This document shows positions 11,251 to 16,898 of a stretch of 56,056 bases of DNA, one piece after another. The stretch comes from Candidatus Kaiserbacteria bacterium RIFCSPHIGHO2_01_FULL_46_22 (GTDB lineage Bacteria; Patescibacteriota; Minisyncoccia; Phycocordibacterales; UBA918): contig MFKO01000002.1 of assembly GCA_001779595.1 (NCBI GenBank), positions 148,311-204,366 on the forward strand, written 5' to 3'. The notes below the pieces were generated by a model. That model was not told where the DNA came from, ran no database searches, and was given only the letters and a program-made list of their open reading frames with translations. The position numbers and the translations under genes are program-made. Every line of letters starts with the position of its first letter. Position 1 is the first letter of the stretch.

Positions 11251-11295
11251 ACATAATAAAAGCGCCGGCCCAAAGGGCCGGCGCTTTTATTATGT
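11251..11295. terminator. Bidirectional terminator
   Basis: 21-bp stem ACATAATAAAAGCGCCGGCCC-AAA-GGGCCGGCGCTTTTATTATGT between convergent genes. Confidence 0.85.
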
Positions 11296-11303
11296 AGATC
11301 AGT

Positions 11304-12107
11304 CTAGCGAACGTTCACTGTTGCAGTGAAGCCGTTATTAGCTGTGTTTGTATCACCATTAGTGTATACACTTACGTTAAATTTATGGCTTCCGTCGTCA
11401 TTATCAGTAACGAAAGCGATCGTTAGGGTAGCCATTTCACCAGGTTTAAGTGGCTGCTGAACATTTGACTTGAAGTCATCGCCATTTGGCAACTCAGCTT
11501 TGAAGTGCCAGTTACCAGAAGTCTTGGTGCCTAGGTTCTTTACGCGGAATTGTATCGCGCTCTGTTCCTCTGCCTCGAGGTAAGCAGTCGGAATAAAACG
11601 TTCACCACTCGTCATCTTACCAACCGCAACTAGAGAAATTTCAAGATCAGTGTAGCCATTTGGATTTGAAGTAGGTACTACGTAGGTAGTCACAGTTCGA
11701 TACTGAGGCGTAACAGGCTTTGGAGTTACTGTCGGAGTAGAAGTACCTGGGGTTGAAGTAGCAATCGGAGATTCCTCTTCCTCACTATCTTCCTCATCGT
11801 CGATTAGATCTTCACCGCCATCAACGACTACGACACCATCATCCTCTTCGTCAGTTGTCTCATCTGTTTCATCTGACTCGTCGTCTGAAGTACGTTCTTC
11901 CAGAGCGCGCTGATTATCATTAAAGACATTTGCTAGAGAGTTCCAAGCAGAAGGGATCATTCGCACAAATTGAATTGCTAGCCAAGCCAGCAATATAACT
12001 AGTACAACAAAGCCGACAATAGCTAAAACATTAGAAAGTGTCCAACCAGCCTTTAGTTCATCCTCCTTCAGAAGCAAGTCATCCTTCTTTTCAATCTGAT
12101 CGTTCAT
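11304..12107 (-). CDS. Membrane-anchored surface protein with acidic/Thr-Pro stalk and C-terminal CARDB/Ig-like domain
   Basis: TM near N-terminus, Asp/Glu-rich then ATSTPGTSTPT linker, then FRVKNLGTKTS...LKPGEMATL...NNGFTATV; start reassigned to ATG 12107. Confidence 0.75.
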   Translation of the reverse strand: MNDQIEKKDDLLLKEDELKAGWTLSNVLAIVGFVVLVILLAWLAIQFVRMIPSAWNSLANVFNDNQRALEERTSDDESDETDETTDEEDDGVVVVDGGEDLIDDEEDSEEEESPIATSTPGTSTPTVTPKPVTPQYRTVTTYVVPTSNPNGYTDLEISLVAVGKMTSGERFIPTAYLEAEEQSAIQFRVKNLGTKTSGNWHFKAELPNGDDFKSNVQQPLKPGEMATLTIAFVTDNDDGSHKFNVSVYTNGDTNTANNGFTATVNVR

Positions 12108-12213
12108 AAATTCGAATAAAATTAATGTCGCTATAATACATAATTTTAGCGGTTTGTCAACCCACAAGTTACGTATTGTGCTTACATTATGACGAACCTG
12201 CAGATTAATGAAC

Positions 12214-12241
12214 TTGACAAACCTATGTTTTCGTGTATTAT
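12214..12241 (+). promoter_or_regulatory. Sigma70 promoter for sortase
   Basis: TTGACA-16bp-TATTAT. Confidence 0.55.
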
Positions 12242-12260
12242 ATACGCAATTCTAAATTCT

Positions 12261-12917
12261 ATGTTTTCCAAGCTTATTAACGAAATATTGCCTCGATCTG
12301 GTGTATTTTTAGCCGTTTTCTTTGTCGTGATGAGTCTGGGATACAGCGTGCTTTACGCTATAGACTTCGTTCCAGAGCCTATTGCTACCGAGGAGAAGTC
12401 TGAAGAGACTATTGCTCCTTCTGTGCCTGAAATTACTAAACAGGAGGAAGAAGCGCCAGAGGTAATCGAGACGGGGGATCCACTACCTACGTCTATTACT
12501 ATCGACGCTCTTGATCGCACTATCACTGTCTTGAACCCCACCTCAAACAAGATCAGCGATCTTGATAACGCTCTCTTGAAGGGAGTGGTCCGTCACCCAG
12601 ACTCGGATGACTTAGTTGGTCCTGGTAATATCCTTATTCTCGGCCACTCTAGTTATCTTAAGAATGTCTTCAATAAGAACTTCCAGGCCTTCAATGGCAT
12701 ACAAAATCTCAACTGGGGCGACACTATCCGGGTAAAGAGCGGTGACGTTGAGTACACCTACAAGGTAGACCGTGTCTATAAGGCCGAAGCAAGCGATGTA
12801 AGCGTCAAAACTGGCGGAGATGAGCATAAGCTCACCCTAGTCACCTGTAACACCTTCGGTGCCAAGGAAGACCGCTTCATAGTTGAGGCCACATTAGTCT
12901 CCAAAAAAGCCCTCTAA
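12261..12917 (+). CDS. Sortase
   Basis: N-terminal TM; catalytic His (LGHSS), Cys (TLVTC) and Arg (EDRFIV). Confidence 0.92.
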   Translation: MFSKLINEILPRSGVFLAVFFVVMSLGYSVLYAIDFVPEPIATEEKSEETIAPSVPEITKQEEEAPEVIETGDPLPTSITIDALDRTITVLNPTSNKISDLDNALLKGVVRHPDSDDLVGPGNILILGHSSYLKNVFNKNFQAFNGIQNLNWGDTIRVKSGDVEYTYKVDRVYKAEASDVSVKTGGDEHKLTLVTCNTFGAKEDRFIVEATLVSKKAL

Positions 12918-12932
12918 ACAGGGGCTTTTTTT
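12903..12932 (+). terminator. Intrinsic terminator after sortase
   Basis: AAAAAAGCCC...GGGCTTTTTTT. Confidence 0.7.
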
Positions 12933-12937
12933 GTCTA

Positions 12938-12966
12938 TTGACTTTTAGATCATTTTGTGCTACACT
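12938..12966 (+). promoter_or_regulatory. Strong sigma70 promoter
   Basis: TTGACT-17bp-TACACT with TG extension. Confidence 0.65.
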
Positions 12967-13043
12967 AGTAGAAGTAATCAAAGTTTGCGTGTATAGTACC
13001 CGCAAGTAGTTCTCAACCTCGAACATTGAAATGGAGAGCAGAA

Positions 13044-13499
13044 ATGCCCGATAAGTATTGGAAGACTCTGGCGGCAATTGGATTCATCCTTTTTATTGCC
13101 TCAATCATCAGCGTATTCGGAACAAGTAAGGCCAACGCCGGCAACCGGTGCAAGCCACGCGTTCAGATCAACTGCCCGGTCAATCAGGCTCCCGGCGTGA
13201 AGTACCACGGTAACAAGGTGGTGAAGACTATCCGTGTCACCATCTGCCACAATCGCTGGCACGACCTGCGCGGTGGTCCTGGACAACGTTGGTGGGGCCT
13301 GACATACCGCTACACCGGCGGTGGACAGGAAAACATCAAAGAAATCCGATCGGAATGCACGACACGCAATGTGGTCTCTGGCACACGAGCCGGCAACGCT
13401 CACGACTGCCCACCTCCGGGTGAACGTCGCTCGCGCGGCCTCAAGTGGTACTGGACCCAACCCATGACCGTCAGTGGCGAAACCTACTGGGTCGGCTAG
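13044..13499 (+). CDS. Secreted/anchored Cys- and Trp-rich basic hypothetical protein
   Basis: Signal-peptide-like N-terminus, 5 Cys in mature part, GGAG SD upstream, hairpin downstream. Confidence 0.75.
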   Translation: MPDKYWKTLAAIGFILFIASIISVFGTSKANAGNRCKPRVQINCPVNQAPGVKYHGNKVVKTIRVTICHNRWHDLRGGPGQRWWGLTYRYTGGGQENIKEIRSECTTRNVVSGTRAGNAHDCPPPGERRSRGLKWYWTQPMTVSGETYWVG

Positions 13500-13505
13500 C
13501 TCTTC

Positions 13506-13533
13506 GGTCGGCGAGATTAATCTCTCGCCGACC
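13506..13533 (+). terminator. Hairpin after 13044 ORF
   Basis: GGTCGGCGAGA-TTAATC-TCTCGCCGACC; no U tract. Confidence 0.5.
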
Positions 13534-13538
13534 ACACA

Positions 13539-13612
13539 AATACCGCATCTAAATGGATGTCGGCGACGAAACATTGTTTCGTCTTCGTTATCCGGAGTGA
13601 TCCGGTGGTATT
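13539..13612 (+). ncRNA. Candidate four-way-junction cis-regulatory RNA upstream of the surface protein
   Basis: P1 AATACC/GGTATT, P2 GCATC/GATGT, P3 GACGAAAC/GTTTCGTC, P4 CCGGA-GTGA-TCCGG (GNRA loop). Confidence 0.4.
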
Positions 13613-13632
13613 AAAACAATTTATAATTATTT

Positions 13633-15342
13633 ATGAACAACATTATTAAACTTTCGATCATTTTCTCGTTTGCATTTTTGGTTATGGCTGCATTGCCTAC
13701 CAACGCAGTAAATGCTTACGGTACTAGTGGTTGTGGCGGCTGTGAAGGTGGTGGTGAAAGTGACGGCGGCGAAAAGCCTGATTGGCCTACCACTACTCCA
13801 AAGCCAGCTGAATGTAAGTTCCTAGAAGCTAACAAGACACAACTTCCTGCTGGAGGTGGTGATGTGAAGCTTTCTTGGAAGGCTGTTAACGCCAAAAGGG
13901 TAACTCTTACCGGCTTCGGTGACGTTAAGGCTGAAAACACTCGAACTGTATTCGTTAAGGATGACAAAACCTTCACCCTTACAGCTCATGGTGCCAATGG
14001 CAACGACGACTCTTGTACTGTAAAGATCAAGGTTGAAGAGCCAAAGGAGGTTGCAGTTTGTAAGTTCCTAGAAGCTAACAAGACACAACTTCCTGCCGGA
14101 GGTGGTGACGTAACCCTTACTTGGAAGACTGTAAACGCTAAAAACGTTTCAATCTCAGGTATCGGTGATGTTGCAGCTGAAGGTTCTAAGACTGTATCTG
14201 TAACCAGCACTAAGACCTTTACGCTTACCGCTAAGGGTGCTGGTGGCAACGACGCTTGTGTAGTTACTATCAAAGTAAAGGATGAACCAAACGACAAACC
14301 TGCCGTTTGTGAATACCTTACTGCTAACAAGACCCGTGTTGATGAGGATGGTGAGAACGTGACTCTCTCTTGGTCTACCAAGAATGCCACTTCAGTTTCT
14401 ATCTCTGGCATCGGCAACGTTGCTAAGAGTGGATCTAAGACTGTCTTCGTTGACAGTAACACCACTTTCACTTTGACAGCTGAAGGCACTGACGGTGATG
14501 ACACTTGTGCTGTAACTATCAAGGTTGATGAGGACCACGAAGGTCCAACTCCACGTTGTGATTACTTCCGTGTTGATAACGATGACGATATCGAGGTAGG
14601 CGACCGAGTTACTCTTGAGTGGGAAACTACCAATGCTGACGACGTTCGCATCAACCAGGGTATCGGATCTGTTAGCGACGATGGTTCAAAATCCGTAACA
14701 ATTGATGATGAATACACTGTATTCACATTGACTGCCCGCAATCTAGATGAAGACGAGGAGGATACTTGTACTGTCACTGTCCGCGCTGATGAAGACGAGG
14801 AGGATGATGAAGACGCTCCACGTTGTGATCTAGAAGTATCGAAGAGCCGCGTCAACCGTGGCGACCGAGTCACCCTTTCTTGGGAGACTACCGATGCTGA
14901 CCGAGTTCGCATCACTGACGATCGTGGCAACACCATCGTTAATACCACTAAATCTAGTCTAATGGATGGTGAAGTTGATTTGATCATCAACCAGACCACC
15001 GAATTCACTCTTAATGCTCGTGGCGATGACGGTTCTCGTACCTGCCGCGTGACTGTTAAGACTGACGACGATATCGCAGTTTATGAGAAGCGTGATCAGG
15101 GTTATGTTATTGCATTGACTCAGGTGCCATACACCGGATTTGAAGCAGGACCTACATTGACTCTTATCTTCTATGCGCTGTTGACCCTTTGGGCTCTCTT
15201 CACTGCATACATCTTGGTTATCAAGAAAGGTTCTATCCTCGGCTACTCTCTATACAAGGGTGCTGTAGCAAACGACACTGACCTTGAGAACCGAAAAAAA
15301 GTCGAAGCGCTGGTGGCGAAGTACACGGGACGCAGTTGGTAA
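13633..15342 (+). CDS. Surface protein with five Cys-bracketed Ig-like repeats and VPYTG sorting signal (putative sortase substrate)
   Basis: Signal peptide, CGGC, five ~82-90-aa repeats, VPYTG (15124-15138) followed by TM and KK. Confidence 0.85.
   Translation: MNNIIKLSIIFSFAFLVMAALPTNAVNAYGTSGCGGCEGGGESDGGEKPDWPTTTPKPAECKFLEANKTQLPAGGGDVKLSWKAVNAKRVTLTGFGDVKAENTRTVFVKDDKTFTLTAHGANGNDDSCTVKIKVEEPKEVAVCKFLEANKTQLPAGGGDVTLTWKTVNAKNVSISGIGDVAAEGSKTVSVTSTKTFTLTAKGAGGNDACVVTIKVKDEPNDKPAVCEYLTANKTRVDEDGENVTLSWSTKNATSVSISGIGNVAKSGSKTVFVDSNTTFTLTAEGTDGDDTCAVTIKVDEDHEGPTPRCDYFRVDNDDDIEVGDRVTLEWETTNADDVRINQGIGSVSDDGSKSVTIDDEYTVFTLTARNLDEDEEDTCTVTVRADEDEEDDEDAPRCDLEVSKSRVNRGDRVTLSWETTDADRVRITDDRGNTIVNTTKSSLMDGEVDLIINQTTEFTLNARGDDGSRTCRVTVKTDDDIAVYEKRDQGYVIALTQVPYTGFEAGPTLTLIFYALLTLWALFTAYILVIKKGSILGYSLYKGAVANDTDLENRKKVEALVAKYTGRSW
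13813..14096 (+). repeat. Intragenic repeat: 38-bp exact match between repeats 1 and 2
   Basis: TGTAAGTTCCTAGAAGCTAACAAGACACAACTTCCTGC at 13813-13850 and 14059-14096 (246-nt period). Confidence 0.9.
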
Positions 15343-15452
15343 TAAACCACTCCGCGGCCCCAGCGCCTGAACCCATCAGATATTCTGATGATGACACCCC
15401 GCCCAATCTGCCAGTAGGCAACTCACCTGAGTGGATCAAGTAAGATCCGAAA

Positions 15453-15504: not shown

Positions 15505-16719
15505 TTAAGCAATCGTCTTCTCCGAAATTTCCTTTTTCAACTTGGCAACTAAGGACTGGGGGTCTAGCTGTTCCGAACCGCCGGCTCGTGATTCGAGAGT
15601 TACATTTCCAGCTTCAATCTCCTTATCACCAATCACAGCAAAGTAGGGGAGTTTGTTCTGCTTAGCATTCCTGATCTTCTTACCCAATGATTCATTTGCG
15701 TCATCCAGAACGACACGAACACCAGCCGCTTTAAGCTCTGCAGCAATTTCTTTTGCTCTCTCGTGATGAGCCTCGCCAACCGGCAAAATAGCGATCTGCT
15801 CTGGCGCAAGCCAAAGCGGAAAAGCGCCGTTGTAATGTTCTATCAAGACAGCAGCACAACGTTCCAACGATCCTGCAATAGCAGCGTGGATCATCACGAT
15901 TCTTTCCTTCTCACCCTTTTCGTTAATACAAGTAAGGTCAAAACGCTCTGGAATGTTCATATCCAACTGAATAGTCGCCACCTGCCACTCGCGACCTGCG
16001 GCATTACTACCCATAAAGTCCAACTTTGGACCATACAAAGCCGCTTCGCCTGGCCCTTCAAAGAAATCAGCTCCACGCTCTTCAGCAATCGTACGAAGTT
16101 CACCCTCTGCCTGGTCCCAAATTTCTGGGGTACCTAGGTATTTTTCCGGTGCAGCAGGATCACGGAAAGAAAGACGTACTCGGAGTTTGAAACCAAAAGC
16201 CTTATAAAATGAATCGATGATGTCCCAGATTTTAAGGAACTCCTCTCTGACCTGACTGTGACGACAGAAAACGTGCGCATCATCTTGAGTTATCGACAAA
16301 ACACGGGTTAGACCGCCAAGCTCACCTGACTGTTCGTCACGGTATACCATCGTAGTTTCAGCATAGCGCTGTGGCATCTCTCGGTAGCTGTGTGGTTTAC
16401 GATCAAAGATCTGTGTGTGATGAGGGCAATTCATCGGTTTAAGTGCATATTCACGACCCTCTCTCGAGGTAATCCGAAAAAGCTCGTCCGCAAACTTGTC
16501 CCAATGACCACTACGTTCATATAGGTCTTTCTTAGTTATGTGCGGAATAGTTACTCTTTGATAACCGTACTGCTCACGCAACTGCCAAATGAAATTATCG
16601 ATCTCTTGGCGCAAAACAGTACCTTTCGGAGTCCAAAGAGGTAAACCTGGGCCAACCAACTCAGAGAATGTAAACAGGTCTAATTCACGCCCTATTTGTC
16701 TATGATCTCGTTCTTCCAT
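15505..16719 (-). CDS. thrS: Threonyl-tRNA synthetase lacking N-terminal editing domains
   Basis: DHRQIG start, KPMNCPHH, YRDEQSGELGGLTRV, LYGPKLDF, IHAAIAGSLER; C-terminal anticodon-binding domain. Confidence 0.97.
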   Translation of the reverse strand: MEERDHRQIGRELDLFTFSELVGPGLPLWTPKGTVLRQEIDNFIWQLREQYGYQRVTIPHITKKDLYERSGHWDKFADELFRITSREGREYALKPMNCPHHTQIFDRKPHSYREMPQRYAETTMVYRDEQSGELGGLTRVLSITQDDAHVFCRHSQVREEFLKIWDIIDSFYKAFGFKLRVRLSFRDPAAPEKYLGTPEIWDQAEGELRTIAEERGADFFEGPGEAALYGPKLDFMGSNAAGREWQVATIQLDMNIPERFDLTCINEKGEKERIVMIHAAIAGSLERCAAVLIEHYNGAFPLWLAPEQIAILPVGEAHHERAKEIAAELKAAGVRVVLDDANESLGKKIRNAKQNKLPYFAVIGDKEIEAGNVTLESRAGGSEQLDPQSLVAKLKKEISEKTIA

Positions 16720-16741
16720 AATAAATTTTATAAAGTTAAAT

Positions 16742-16898
16742 AAAAACCGCCCGAGGTACAAAGATGACTTAATGTCTTTGTACCTCGGGCGGTTTTAGCC
16801 GCGGTTCCACCGAGATTTATTACTTCATTAGAGGGCAGATTAGCCGCAGGTTGCGGACGGGATTCCGTTTGTGGTTGGTGGCCACAACAATCTCTGAT
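16742..16898 (-). ncRNA. T-box riboswitch (transcriptional) controlling thrS
   Basis: T-box AAATCTCGGTGGAACCGCG; antiterminator CTCGG-UGGAACC-GCGG-cuaaaa-CCGC-CCGAG; overlapping 18-bp terminator plus U tract; short Stem I with ACC in loop. Confidence 0.88.

What the first reader, a model, noticed from the sequence alone, without database searches (positions are those of the whole stretch)
11304..15443. Sortase locus with a VPYTG-tagged Ig-repeat substrate in a CPR bacterium
Seen: a sortase with intact His/Cys/Arg (12261-12917) lies about 700 bp from a secreted protein ending in LTQ-VPYTG, TM, KK. That is the tripartite layout of an LPXTG-type sorting signal, but with Val at position 1 and a long (~40-aa) cytoplasmic tail. 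A divergent membrane-anchored CARDB-like stalk protein and a secreted Cys-rich protein complete the cluster; uppP and a DsbA-like oxidase are in the same window. Known: sortases cleave between T and G and attach substrates to lipid II or pilins. Inference: a dedicated surface-anchoring system, plausibly for host attachment, whose acceptor in CPR is not established to my knowledge.
Basis: partly seen in the sequence, partly recalled or inferred. Interest (0 to 1): 0.68.

Follow-up and report, generated by a model that had tools for sequence, protein, structure and literature searches.

The report
Dedicated sortase and VPYTG surface protein
A groundwater CPR bacterium (Kaiserbacteria-like) carries a sortase next to the one protein family it most likely processes, an Ig-repeat surface protein with a strongly conserved VPYTGFEAGP signal. 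This three-gene module is conserved across the whole clade but is not described in the searchable literature.

Summary
Window 12261-12917 encodes a sortase: Pfam 70.8 bits, invariant His129/Cys196/Arg205, and a predicted structure that matches solved sortases. It reaches none of NCBI's curated class models (A is not in the scan output).

716 bp downstream, 13633-15342 encodes a secreted protein of five disulfide-bracketed Ig-like repeats. It ends in LTQ-VPYTG-FEAGP, a 23-residue transmembrane (TM) helix, KK, and a 37-residue tail.

- **Motif conservation:** 239 of 242 relatives carry the module. P, T and G are 100% conserved and Y 96%.
- **Linkage, sortase to motif:** 56 of 58 sortase loci with enough downstream DNA have the motif protein on the same strand.
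- **Linkage, motif to sortase:** 23 of 23 motif-seeded metagenome loci with at least 7 kb upstream have the sortase.
- **Third partner:** a divergently transcribed, membrane-anchored CARDB-domain protein is also conserved. The trio persists in locus L118, where the flanking genes differ.
- **Not core:** the Cys-rich gene occupies a variable slot.

Two features are unusual for a sorting signal. The module occurs on a single protein family. In most relatives it is followed by about 290 residues of conserved cytoplasmic domains, which are split off as a separate gene or lost in the window's lineage.

Verdict: a one-enzyme, one-substrate sortase system and a new variant of a known kind. Cleavage, the acceptor and the function are untested.

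The parts
11304..12107 (-). Membrane-anchored CARDB-domain protein (267 aa from the ATG at 12107; the mechanical ORF runs to 12167). It has an N-terminal TM helix, an acidic Pro/Thr-rich linker and a C-terminal CARDB beta-sandwich. It is the conserved third member of the module.
   Evidence: Pfam CARDB 27 bits against a cut-off of 22.7. It lies divergently upstream of the sortase in 72/80 genome loci and in 93/98 testable sortase-substrate pairs. A similarly built TM-anchored protein lies divergently upstream of the sortase in the non-syntenic locus L118; it fell below the tblastn threshold and is called CARDB-like from reading its sequence only. The TM helix and the juxtamembrane 'VRxIPSAFSSLAS' are conserved.
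12132..12242 (.). Divergent control region. It holds two mirror-image promoter-like sites (TTGACA-16-TATTAT, 11/12 each): minus strand 12160-12133 and plus strand 12214-12241. Together they form a 29-nt imperfect inverted repeat.
   Evidence: Equivalent back-to-back sites occur in relatives L001 and L006. These are consensus matches only; transcription was not shown.
12261..12917 (+). Sortase (218 aa). It has an N-terminal TM anchor (AF2 helix, residues 2-35), a disordered linker of about 40 residues, and a catalytic beta-barrel with His129 (12645-12647), Cys196 in TLVTC (12846-12848) and Arg205 (12873-12875).
   Evidence: PF04203 70.8 bits. The triad is invariant. AF2 pLDDT is 80.8. Foldseek gives probability 1.0 to solved sortases of classes A, C, D and E. 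No NCBIfam class model reaches its cut-off.
12903..12931 (+). Terminator-like hairpin with a T run, overlapping the sortase stop codon.
   Evidence: 11-pair stem. Consensus match only.
13044..13499 (+). Small secreted Cys-rich protein (signal peptide, 5 Cys). It occupies a variable slot between sortase and substrate and is not a core part.
   Evidence: No family hit. Its family is present in 21 loci. 51/127 pairs have no gene in the slot, and other loci hold unrelated small secreted proteins there.
13633..15342 (+). Putative sortase substrate (569 aa): signal peptide (13633-13716), a CGGC/Gly-rich cap, five Ig-like repeats each bracketed by a Cys pair (13813-15078), a disordered stalk, the sorting module and the tail.
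   Evidence: There are 325 homologues, all unannotated. AF2 of orthologue P0098 gives beta-sandwiches with pLDDT above 90. Foldseek matches tandem Ig domains.
15109..15153 (+). Extended sorting motif I-A-L-T-Q-V-P-Y-T-G-F-E-A-G-P (VPYTG = 15124-15138). The predicted scissile bond is Thr501|Gly502.
   Evidence: Across 240 proteins, P, T and G are 100% conserved, Y 96%, F+1 99%, A+3 98% and G+4 98%. The region is disordered in the AF2 model of P0098.
15154..15222 (+). TM helix TLTLIFYALLTLWALFTAYILVI, unusually conserved for a sorting signal (F, Y, W and Y at 98-99%).
   Evidence: 13 of the 21 invariant columns of the whole-protein alignment lie in the motif-plus-TM module.
15223..15339 (+). Cytoplasmic tail: KK stop-transfer residues plus 37 residues, including the conserved helix-like RKKVEALVAKY. 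It stands where relatives have cytoplasmic domains B and A.

Best explanation
This is a dedicated, one-enzyme, one-substrate sortase system of Paceibacteria-type CPR bacteria.

**Proposed sequence of events.**
1. The 569-aa precursor is exported by Sec through its N-terminal signal peptide.
2. Its five Ig-like repeats fold outside the cell and are locked by one disulfide each.
3. Its C-terminal TM helix and KK stop transfer. This leaves the disordered stalk ...IALTQ-VPYTG-FEAGP a few residues above the membrane.
4. The membrane-anchored sortase next door attacks the Thr501-Gly502 bond with Cys196, with His129 and Arg205 assisting, and forms a thioacyl intermediate.
5. The sortase passes the Ig-repeat stalk to an amine acceptor. 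The acceptor is most simply the peptidoglycan precursor lipid II, which gives a covalently wall-anchored surface fibre.
6. A peptide of about 70 residues (GFEAGP-TM-tail) stays in the membrane.

The divergently transcribed CARDB-domain membrane protein belongs to the same module. Its role is unknown; it could be a partner, a base or an alternative acceptor.

**Shown:** the genes, the catalytic residues, the folds, the motif conservation, the topology and the two-way gene linkage.

**Inferred:** cleavage, the acceptor, and a surface or attachment role.
For: **Enzyme.**
- Sortase domain above Pfam's cut-off.
- Invariant H/C/R triad that aligns with the B. anthracis SrtA active-site motifs.
- Sortase fold by AF2 and Foldseek.

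**Substrate.**
- Signal peptide, xPxTG, TM helix and KK in the order and topology of a sorting signal.
- The motif lies in a disordered, exposed stalk.
- The three positions that define sortase motifs (P, T, G) are 100% conserved in 240 proteins.
- 12 relatives end 33-45 residues after the motif, in the classical form ...VIKKKVS.

**Linkage.**
- 56/58 sortase-seeded loci with at least 6 kb downstream have exactly this protein downstream on the same strand.
- 23/23 motif-seeded metagenome loci with at least 7 kb upstream, and 39/40 with at least 5 kb, have the sortase upstream.
- The pair, together with a similarly built TM-anchored protein that looks CARDB-like on reading its sequence, persists in L118. 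There the sortase is only 36% identical and gyrB, ThrRS and DnaE are not neighbours.

**One substrate.**
- Apart from one adjacent VPETG paralogue in L041 and three hits that look spurious (one in an ORF overlapping the L012 sortase gene), no other xPxTG-plus-TM ORF was found in about 1.3 Mb of flanking DNA, nor in the 56 kb window.
- 109/112 module-bearing representatives share the same ectodomain family.

**Supporting context.** A DsbA-like oxidoreductase and uppP are present in the window.
Against: - No biochemical, proteomic or transcript evidence exists. Only DNA runs hold the sequence.
- The module is confined to one protein family, so it has not been shown to be a portable signal. Its conservation could be family-specific.
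- The TM helix is conserved, and most orthologues have about 290 residues of folded cytoplasmic domains after it. This is not expected for a segment that is discarded after cleavage.
- No LPXTG-anchor HMM hit at E <= 1.
- The whole neighbourhood (gyrB, ThrRS, DnaE) is syntenic across the clade. Much of the co-location is therefore inherited, not independently re-created.
- The acceptor cannot be read from the window, which has no mur genes.
- Whole genomes were not scanned, so 'single substrate' is provisional.
Confidence: 0.6

Rival explanations
1. The sortase joins the substrate to another protein and not to peptidoglycan. Either it links substrate to substrate in a pilus-like polymer, as class C sortases do, or it links the substrate to the conserved CARDB-domain membrane protein, which would act as a base.
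For: - The substrate is built of tandem Ig-like domains, as Gram-positive pilins are.
- The sortase sits in a gene cassette with its substrate, as pilus sortases do.
- A third conserved, membrane-anchored beta-sandwich protein is always divergently adjacent, with mirrored promoter-like sites.
- CPR wall structure and the usual acceptor are unknown.
Against: - No invariant or near-invariant Lys (pilin-motif candidate) appears in the ectodomain alignment or in the CARDB alignment.
- The class C model scores 34 bits against a cut-off of 160.
- The loci examined show a single sortase gene and no set of major and minor pilins.
Confidence: 0.15
2. VPYTGFEAGP is a structural juxtamembrane element of a bitopic (type I) membrane protein and is not cleaved. 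The sortase is merely a syntenic neighbour with other, unseen substrates.
For: - The module occurs on one family only.
- The TM helix is highly conserved, and most orthologues carry folded cytoplasmic domains B and A after it, like a receptor.
- gyrB, ThrRS and DnaE are just as syntenic as the sortase.
- Sortases without an adjacent substrate exist (L028, L066).
Against: - The invariant residues are exactly the P, T and G of sortase motifs, at the canonical distance from the TM helix.
- The pair stays together where the flanks differ (L118, L021, L139, L030, L099).
- Forms with a classical 33-residue ending exist.
- Domains B and A can be split off or lost without changing the module.
- No convincing other sortase substrate was seen nearby; the only other plausible one is the adjacent VPETG paralogue in L041.
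Confidence: 0.12
3. Sortase cleavage is a switch. It uncouples the ectodomain from the TM-plus-cytoplasmic part, so that the remaining membrane fragment (with domains B and A, or the short tail plus a separate B-A protein) reports or controls surface assembly.
For: - The TM helix and the cytoplasmic domains are conserved and confidently folded, with pLDDT above 90.
- The domains are found fused, or as a gene immediately downstream.
- The tail helix RKKVEALVAKY is conserved in the window's clade.
- From memory, not checked here: leftover sorting-signal peptides are sensed by a two-component system in Streptococcus gordonii.
Against: - Domains A and B match no known family or structure, so no signalling chemistry can be named.
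- They are absent from the window and its seven closest relatives, so they cannot be essential here.
Confidence: 0.1

Closest known systems
LPXTG-type cell-wall sorting by housekeeping sortases (classes A and E; Firmicutes and Actinobacteria)
   Same: - Cys transpeptidase fold and His/Cys/Arg triad.
- N-terminal membrane anchor.
- The substrate has a signal peptide, an xPxTG motif, a TM helix and basic residues.
   Different: - One substrate family, not many unrelated ones.
- Val at position 1, a fixed Tyr at X, and an extended conserved motif (…LTQVPYTGFEAGP).
- A conserved TM helix.
- 39 to about 330 residues after the TM helix, not a handful.
- No class HMM reaches its cut-off (best 42.8 bits against 140), and there is no LPXTG-anchor HMM hit.
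Proteobacterial dedicated sortase system (class GN sortase TIGR03784 with one adjacent LPXTG target; PMC3237569, PMC11580497)
   Same: One sortase is encoded next to its apparently single target, outside the classical Gram-positive phyla. This is the 'dedicated system' logic described in PMC3237569.
   Different: - The sortase is not a member of that family (23.5 bits against 158).
- The target is different: Ig repeats here, a vWFA/vault-like protein there.
- No PdsR/PdsS two-component genes or OmpA-like partner are present.
- The conserved partner here is a CARDB-domain membrane protein.
Pilus-specific class C sortases and their pilins
   Same: - Cassette organisation.
- Substrates built from Ig-like domains.
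- From memory: non-Leu first positions occur in pilin motifs (IPQTG, VPDTG, YPRTG in S. pneumoniae RrgB, RrgC and RrgA).
   Different: - No conserved pilin-motif Lys.
- No multiple pilin genes.
- Disulfides, not the isopeptide-type domains recognised by HMMs.
- The class C HMM is far below its cut-off.
CPR sortase family fam000526 (Meheust et al. 2019, PMC6744442)
   Same: It documents that sortases are enriched in CPR and linked to surface and pilus biology. The window's enzyme is annotated 'sortase' in public records.
   Different: That work does not describe substrates or a sorting motif. Whether the window's clade is the same family was not tested here.

Membership tests
Sortase superfamily (Pfam PF04203, peptidase C60) | Domain HMM above the curated cut-off | tested here: met
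   70.8 bits against 26.6, covering model positions 1-125 of 125.
Sortase superfamily (Pfam PF04203, peptidase C60) | Catalytic His, Cys (TLxTC) and Arg conserved | tested here: met
   H129, C196 and R205 are invariant in 23 homologues. They align with LITC and RY of B. anthracis SrtA 2kw8.
Sortase superfamily (Pfam PF04203, peptidase C60) | Eight-stranded beta-barrel sortase fold | tested here: met
   AF2 pLDDT 80.8. All 50 top Foldseek hits are sortases, with probability 1.0 and target TM-scores up to 0.82.
Sortase superfamily (Pfam PF04203, peptidase C60) | Transpeptidase activity on an xPxTG substrate | not testable with these tools
   Needs an enzyme assay.
Curated sortase classes C, D, E, F and GN (NCBIfam; classes A and B do not appear in the scan output) | Class HMM at or above its cut-off | tested here: not met
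   Scores against cut-offs: SrtD-type 42.8/140, D 37.3/165, C 34/160, E 33.7/160, GN 23.5/158, F 14.4/166, TIGR01076 33.9/39.35. Foldseek does not favour any class.
LPXTG-type C-terminal sorting signal | xPxTG pentapeptide just outside a TM helix, followed by basic residues, on a protein with a signal peptide | tested here: met
   VPYTG at 498-502, TM helix 508-530, KK 531-532, signal peptide 1-28. P, T and G are 100% conserved.
LPXTG-type C-terminal sorting signal | Signal lies at the extreme C-terminus with only a short charged tail | tested here: not met
   39 residues follow the TM helix here. In relatives, 12 of 240 have 45 or fewer residues after the motif and 104 have 250-350.
LPXTG-type C-terminal sorting signal | Recognised by the LPXTG-anchor HMMs (TIGR01167 / PF00746) | tested here: not met
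   No hit at E <= 1 in Pfam or NCBIfam for the window protein. For nine relatives, no hit at the thresholds used: Pfam E <= 0.01 for eight, NCBIfam E <= 0.1 for nine.
LPXTG-type C-terminal sorting signal | Portable suffix shared by otherwise unrelated proteins | tested here: not met
   109/112 module-bearing representatives have the same ectodomain family.
LPXTG-type C-terminal sorting signal | Cleaved between T and G and linked to the wall | not testable with these tools
   Needs biochemistry or proteomics.
Dedicated sortase system (one sortase, one adjacent target; concept of PMC3237569) | Enzyme and target encoded side by side | tested here: met
   56/58 and 23/23 loci, always on the same strand, with the motif 1.3-6.5 kb after the sortase stop.
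Dedicated sortase system (one sortase, one adjacent target; concept of PMC3237569) | Only one target per genome | tested here: inconclusive
   One candidate in the 56 kb window and one per 20 kb locus, apart from an adjacent paralogue in L041. Whole genomes could not be scanned.
Sortase-assembled pilus | Conserved pilin-motif Lys and several pilin genes with a class C sortase | tested here: not met
   No invariant Lys in alignment A2. One substrate gene per locus. The class C HMM is below its cut-off. Variable repeat numbers make the alignment imperfect.
CARDB domain (PF07705), for the divergent neighbour | Domain HMM above the cut-off | tested here: met
   27 bits against 22.7, residues 194-281 of the 287-aa ORF.

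The most novel reading that the evidence does not exclude
In its ancestral, fused form the VPYTG module sits in the middle of a receptor-like bitopic protein: Ig-repeat ectodomain, sortase site, conserved TM helix, then two novel cytoplasmic domains. Sortase would then do more than anchor a protein. It would split one polypeptide into a wall-bound fibre and a membrane-tethered cytoplasmic module, coupling surface assembly to an intracellular function. The conserved TM helices of enzyme and substrate would mediate specific recognition inside the membrane. The window shows the reduced end-state of this system.
Probability: 0.2. Interest if true: 0.8.

Novelty: new variant of a known kind. Interest (0 to 1): 0.55.

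Why it matters
CPR/Patescibacteria are thought to live attached to other cells, but how they build and decorate their envelope is poorly known. Sortases were noted as enriched in CPR, yet I found no description of a substrate or sorting motif for them.

This module gives a concrete, testable enzyme-substrate pair. It is conserved across a large clade (Kaiserbacteria, Nomurabacteria and other Paceibacteria) at a fixed, housekeeping-like chromosomal position. That placement suggests a core envelope component more than an accessory adhesin.

The ectodomain varies strongly in length and repeat number, as expected for an exposed, interaction-prone surface.

The extended motif and the cytoplasmic domains behind it would widen the definition of a sortase substrate, if cleavage is confirmed. 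The motif could also be useful as an orthogonal sortase tag.

Tried and rejected
- **Literature:** searches for VPYTG, PYTGF, and sortase with CPR, Patescibacteria, Parcubacteria or Paceibacteria found nothing on the motif or on CPR sortase substrates. The 2026 Pam-pilus preprint concerns a different, donor-strand-exchange system and mentions sortase only as background.
- **Motif and tails:** Pfam and NCBIfam scans of the window protein and nine long relatives gave no family for the motif or the tails.
- **Cytoplasmic domains A and B:** profile searches against PDB and Pfam gave only noise. Foldseek of the full-length orthologue model was dominated by the Ig domains, so the cytoplasmic folds stay unassigned.
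- **Expression:** only DNA metagenome runs (groundwater, soil) hold the region, so no read analysis was attempted.
- **Cys-rich gene as a core member:** rejected, since it sits in a variable slot.
- **Acceptor:** the other window genes are housekeeping and include no mur genes.
- **Pilin-type Lys:** none is conserved.

Full report
**1. What is in the sequence**

The region holds four ORFs, as described.

*Sortase (12261-12917, plus strand, 218 aa).* The mechanical ORF starts at 12189. Public gene calls use the 218-aa form, and a strong promoter-like site lies at 12214-12241.
- It matches Pfam Sortase at 70.8 bits against a cut-off of 26.6.
- In an alignment of 23 homologues, His129 (LGHSSY), Cys196 (TLxTC) and Arg205 (DRF) are invariant (coordinates).
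- A profile search of PDB finds only sortases. The best is B. anthracis SrtA 2kw8 at E 7e-9, with the active-site motifs aligned.
- An AlphaFold model (pLDDT 80.8) shows an N-terminal helix (residues 2-35), a disordered linker and a beta-barrel.
- All 50 best Foldseek matches are sortases of classes A, C, D and E, with no class favoured.
- No NCBIfam class model comes near its cut-off; the best is 42.8 bits against 140.

*Substrate (13633-15342, plus strand, 569 aa).*
- Signal peptide, residues 1-28.
- A Gly/Cys-rich cap.
- Five repeats of about 75-85 residues, each bracketed by a Cys pair.
- A short stalk, then LTQ-VPYTG (residues 498-502).
- FEAGP, then a 23-residue hydrophobic helix.
- KK and 37 further residues.

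It is the only credible xPxTG-plus-TM candidate in the 56 kb window.

*Other genes.*
- The divergent gene at 11304-12107 (minus strand) has an N-terminal TM helix, an acidic Pro/Thr-rich linker and a CARDB domain above Pfam's cut-off.
- uppP and a DsbA-like gene lie about 34 kb away.
- The organism is a Kaiserbacteria-like CPR bacterium from groundwater or soil metagenomes.

**2. Conservation of the signal**

The substrate has 325 homologues, and almost all are unannotated. A search of 1.84 billion representative proteins with only the last 91 residues found 322.

Across 240 proteins the module reads I-[SA]-L-[TS]-Q-V-P-Y-T-G-F-[ED]-A-G-P-x-L-T-x-x-F-Y-x-L-L-x-L-W-A-L-x-x-A-Y-x-L-V-I-[KR]-[KR].
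- P, T and G are 100% conserved, and Y is 96%.
- Four aromatic residues of the TM helix are 98-99% conserved.
- Ectodomains, by contrast, are only 33-60% identical and vary from about 300 to more than 1600 residues.
- 13 of the 21 invariant columns of a 40-sequence alignment fall inside the module.

In an AlphaFold model of the full-length orthologue P0098:
- the repeats are beta-sandwiches with pLDDT above 90;
- the motif lies in a disordered stretch;
- a TM helix follows;
- Foldseek matches tandem Ig domains such as titin, PTP-delta Ig1-3 and SiiE.

**3. Linkage to the sortase, tested in both directions**

*Seeded on the sortase.* 80 species-representative genome loci were fetched. Of the 58 with at least 6 kb downstream, 56 contain exactly one VPYTGF[ED]AG protein, always on the same strand.

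*Seeded on the DNA pattern for VPYTGFEAGP in metagenomes.* 118 loci were fetched. The sortase is upstream on the same strand in 23/23 loci with at least 7 kb of upstream DNA, and in 39/40 with at least 5 kb.

*Caveat.* The whole neighbourhood (gyrB, then the divergent CARDB gene, sortase, substrate, then convergent ThrRS and DnaE) is syntenic across the clade. Most of this linkage is therefore inherited.

*Informative exceptions.*
- The pair persists where gyrB and CARDB (L021, L139) or ThrRS (L030, L099) are missing.
- In L118 the genome is high-GC, the sortase is only 36% identical and all three housekeeping flanks are absent. A TM-anchored protein that reads as CARDB-like (below the tblastn threshold), the sortase and the VPYTGFEAGP protein are still together.
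- Conversely, two loci have the sortase without the substrate (L028, L066).
- The CARDB gene accompanies 93 of 98 testable pairs.
- Mirror-image promoter-like sites (TTGACA-16-TATTAT, 11/12 each) face the CARDB gene and the sortase. They recur in two relatives.

**4. What is unusual**

*(a) One protein family only.* 109 of 112 representatives that carry the module share the window's ectodomain family. The flanks hold no convincing other candidate, apart from one adjacent VPETG paralogue in L041. This fits a dedicated, one-to-one system in the sense of Haft (PMC3237569). It also means the module has not been shown to be a portable signal.

*(b) The part after the motif is often long.*

| Residues after the motif | Number of relatives | Note |
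|---|---|---|
| 45 or fewer | 12 | classical ending, ...VIKKKVS |
| 60-80 | 62 | the window's type, with a conserved RKKVEALVAKY segment |
| 120-200 | 47 | |
| 250-350 | 104 | |

The long tails hold two confidently folded domains: B, an alpha/beta domain of about 70 residues, and A, an all-alpha domain of about 100 residues. Neither has a relative in Pfam or PDB.

The same B-A unit also exists as a separate protein of 180-290 residues. It is encoded immediately after substrate genes with short tails (L010, L016, L019, L026, L029, L038). It is absent from the window and its seven closest relatives. The simplest history is fusion, then fission, then loss, with the window at the reduced end.

*(c) The sortase's own membrane anchor is conserved.* The anchor and its juxtamembrane IDFVPEP are conserved. 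Together with the conserved substrate helix, this suggests recognition within the membrane. This is inference only.

**5. The gene between**

The Cys-rich ORF (13044-13499) has no family.
- In 51 of 127 pairs, sortase and substrate are directly adjacent.
- Elsewhere the gap holds one to three small signal-peptide proteins from several unrelated families.
- The window's family occurs in 21 loci.

It is a variable passenger, not part of the core.

**6. Mechanism and rivals**

*Best reading (confidence 0.6).* Sec export is followed by disulfide-stabilised folding of the Ig repeats and retention by the TM helix and KK. The neighbouring sortase then cleaves at Thr501|Gly502 and transfers the stalk to an amine acceptor, most simply lipid II.

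*Rivals.*
- Transfer to another protein or polymerisation (0.15). This is weakened by the lack of a conserved Lys.
- No cleavage, with the motif being structural (0.12). This is weakened by P/T/G invariance, the L118 context and the classical short forms.
- Cleavage as a switch that frees a cytoplasmic module (0.10). This is attractive for the long forms but cannot be essential in the window, which lacks domains B and A.

Nothing here tests activity, the acceptor or host attachment.

**7. Comparison and novelty**

- Sortases in CPR are known (PMC6744442).
- Public records already call this enzyme a sortase.
- I found no description of its substrate or motif.
- The architecture is closest to the proteobacterial dedicated sortase system. 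The enzyme is not a member of that family, and the partners differ.

I rate it a new variant of a known kind, of moderate interest. It is a solid, widely conserved and experimentally tractable pair. The open question with real surprise value is what the cytoplasmic domains behind the cleavage site do.

Noticed in passing
window 12132-12160 and 12214-12242: Two mirror-image promoter-like elements (TTGACA-16-TATTAT, 11/12 each) form a 29-nt imperfect inverted repeat between the CARDB gene and the sortase. Similar back-to-back sites occur in relatives L001 and L006.
   Followed up: partly
L010 7102-7719; L016 12793-13443; also L019, L026, L029, L038: Cytoplasmic domains B and A are fused to the substrate in most relatives. 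In these loci they are a separate gene right after, or overlapping the end of, a short-tailed substrate gene. They are absent from the window and from L001-L007. They match no known family or structure.
   Followed up: partly
window 13044-13499 and the equivalent gap in 127 loci: The space between sortase and substrate is a variable slot. It holds 0-3 small signal-peptide proteins, often Cys-rich, from several unrelated families.
   Followed up: partly
L041 15623-17410: A second protein with a related signal (LLTEVPETG plus a TM helix, 83 residues after the motif) lies directly downstream of the main VPYTG protein. It is a possible paralogous second substrate.
   Followed up: no
L066 10001-13890; L028: In these two loci the sortase has no adjacent substrate. 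In L066 it abuts DnaE directly, and the CARDB gene, the substrate and ThrRS are all missing from the locus.
   Followed up: partly
window 13720-13760 (substrate residues about 30-43): A Gly/Cys-rich cap (SGCGGCEGGG) lies right after the signal peptide. Relatives have similar GGCCGGG-type caps (P0098, P0052, L003). Its role is unknown.
   Followed up: no
window 15505-16761 (minus strand): The ThrRS ORF is 418 aa, while relatives have 581-586 aa (L016, L010). The window's form is about 83% identical to L001 and L002 but only about 45% to L003, L004, L006 and L007. This suggests a shortened ThrRS, or two ThrRS types in the clade.
   Followed up: no
window 11252-11294: A 20-bp perfect-stem hairpin lies between the convergent gyrB and CARDB genes. 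It looks like a bidirectional terminator.
   Followed up: no
sortase residues 13-41 (window 12297-12383): The sortase membrane anchor and the following IDFVPEP are nearly invariant across homologues, which is unusual for a sortase anchor. The substrate's TM helix is conserved in parallel.
   Followed up: partly
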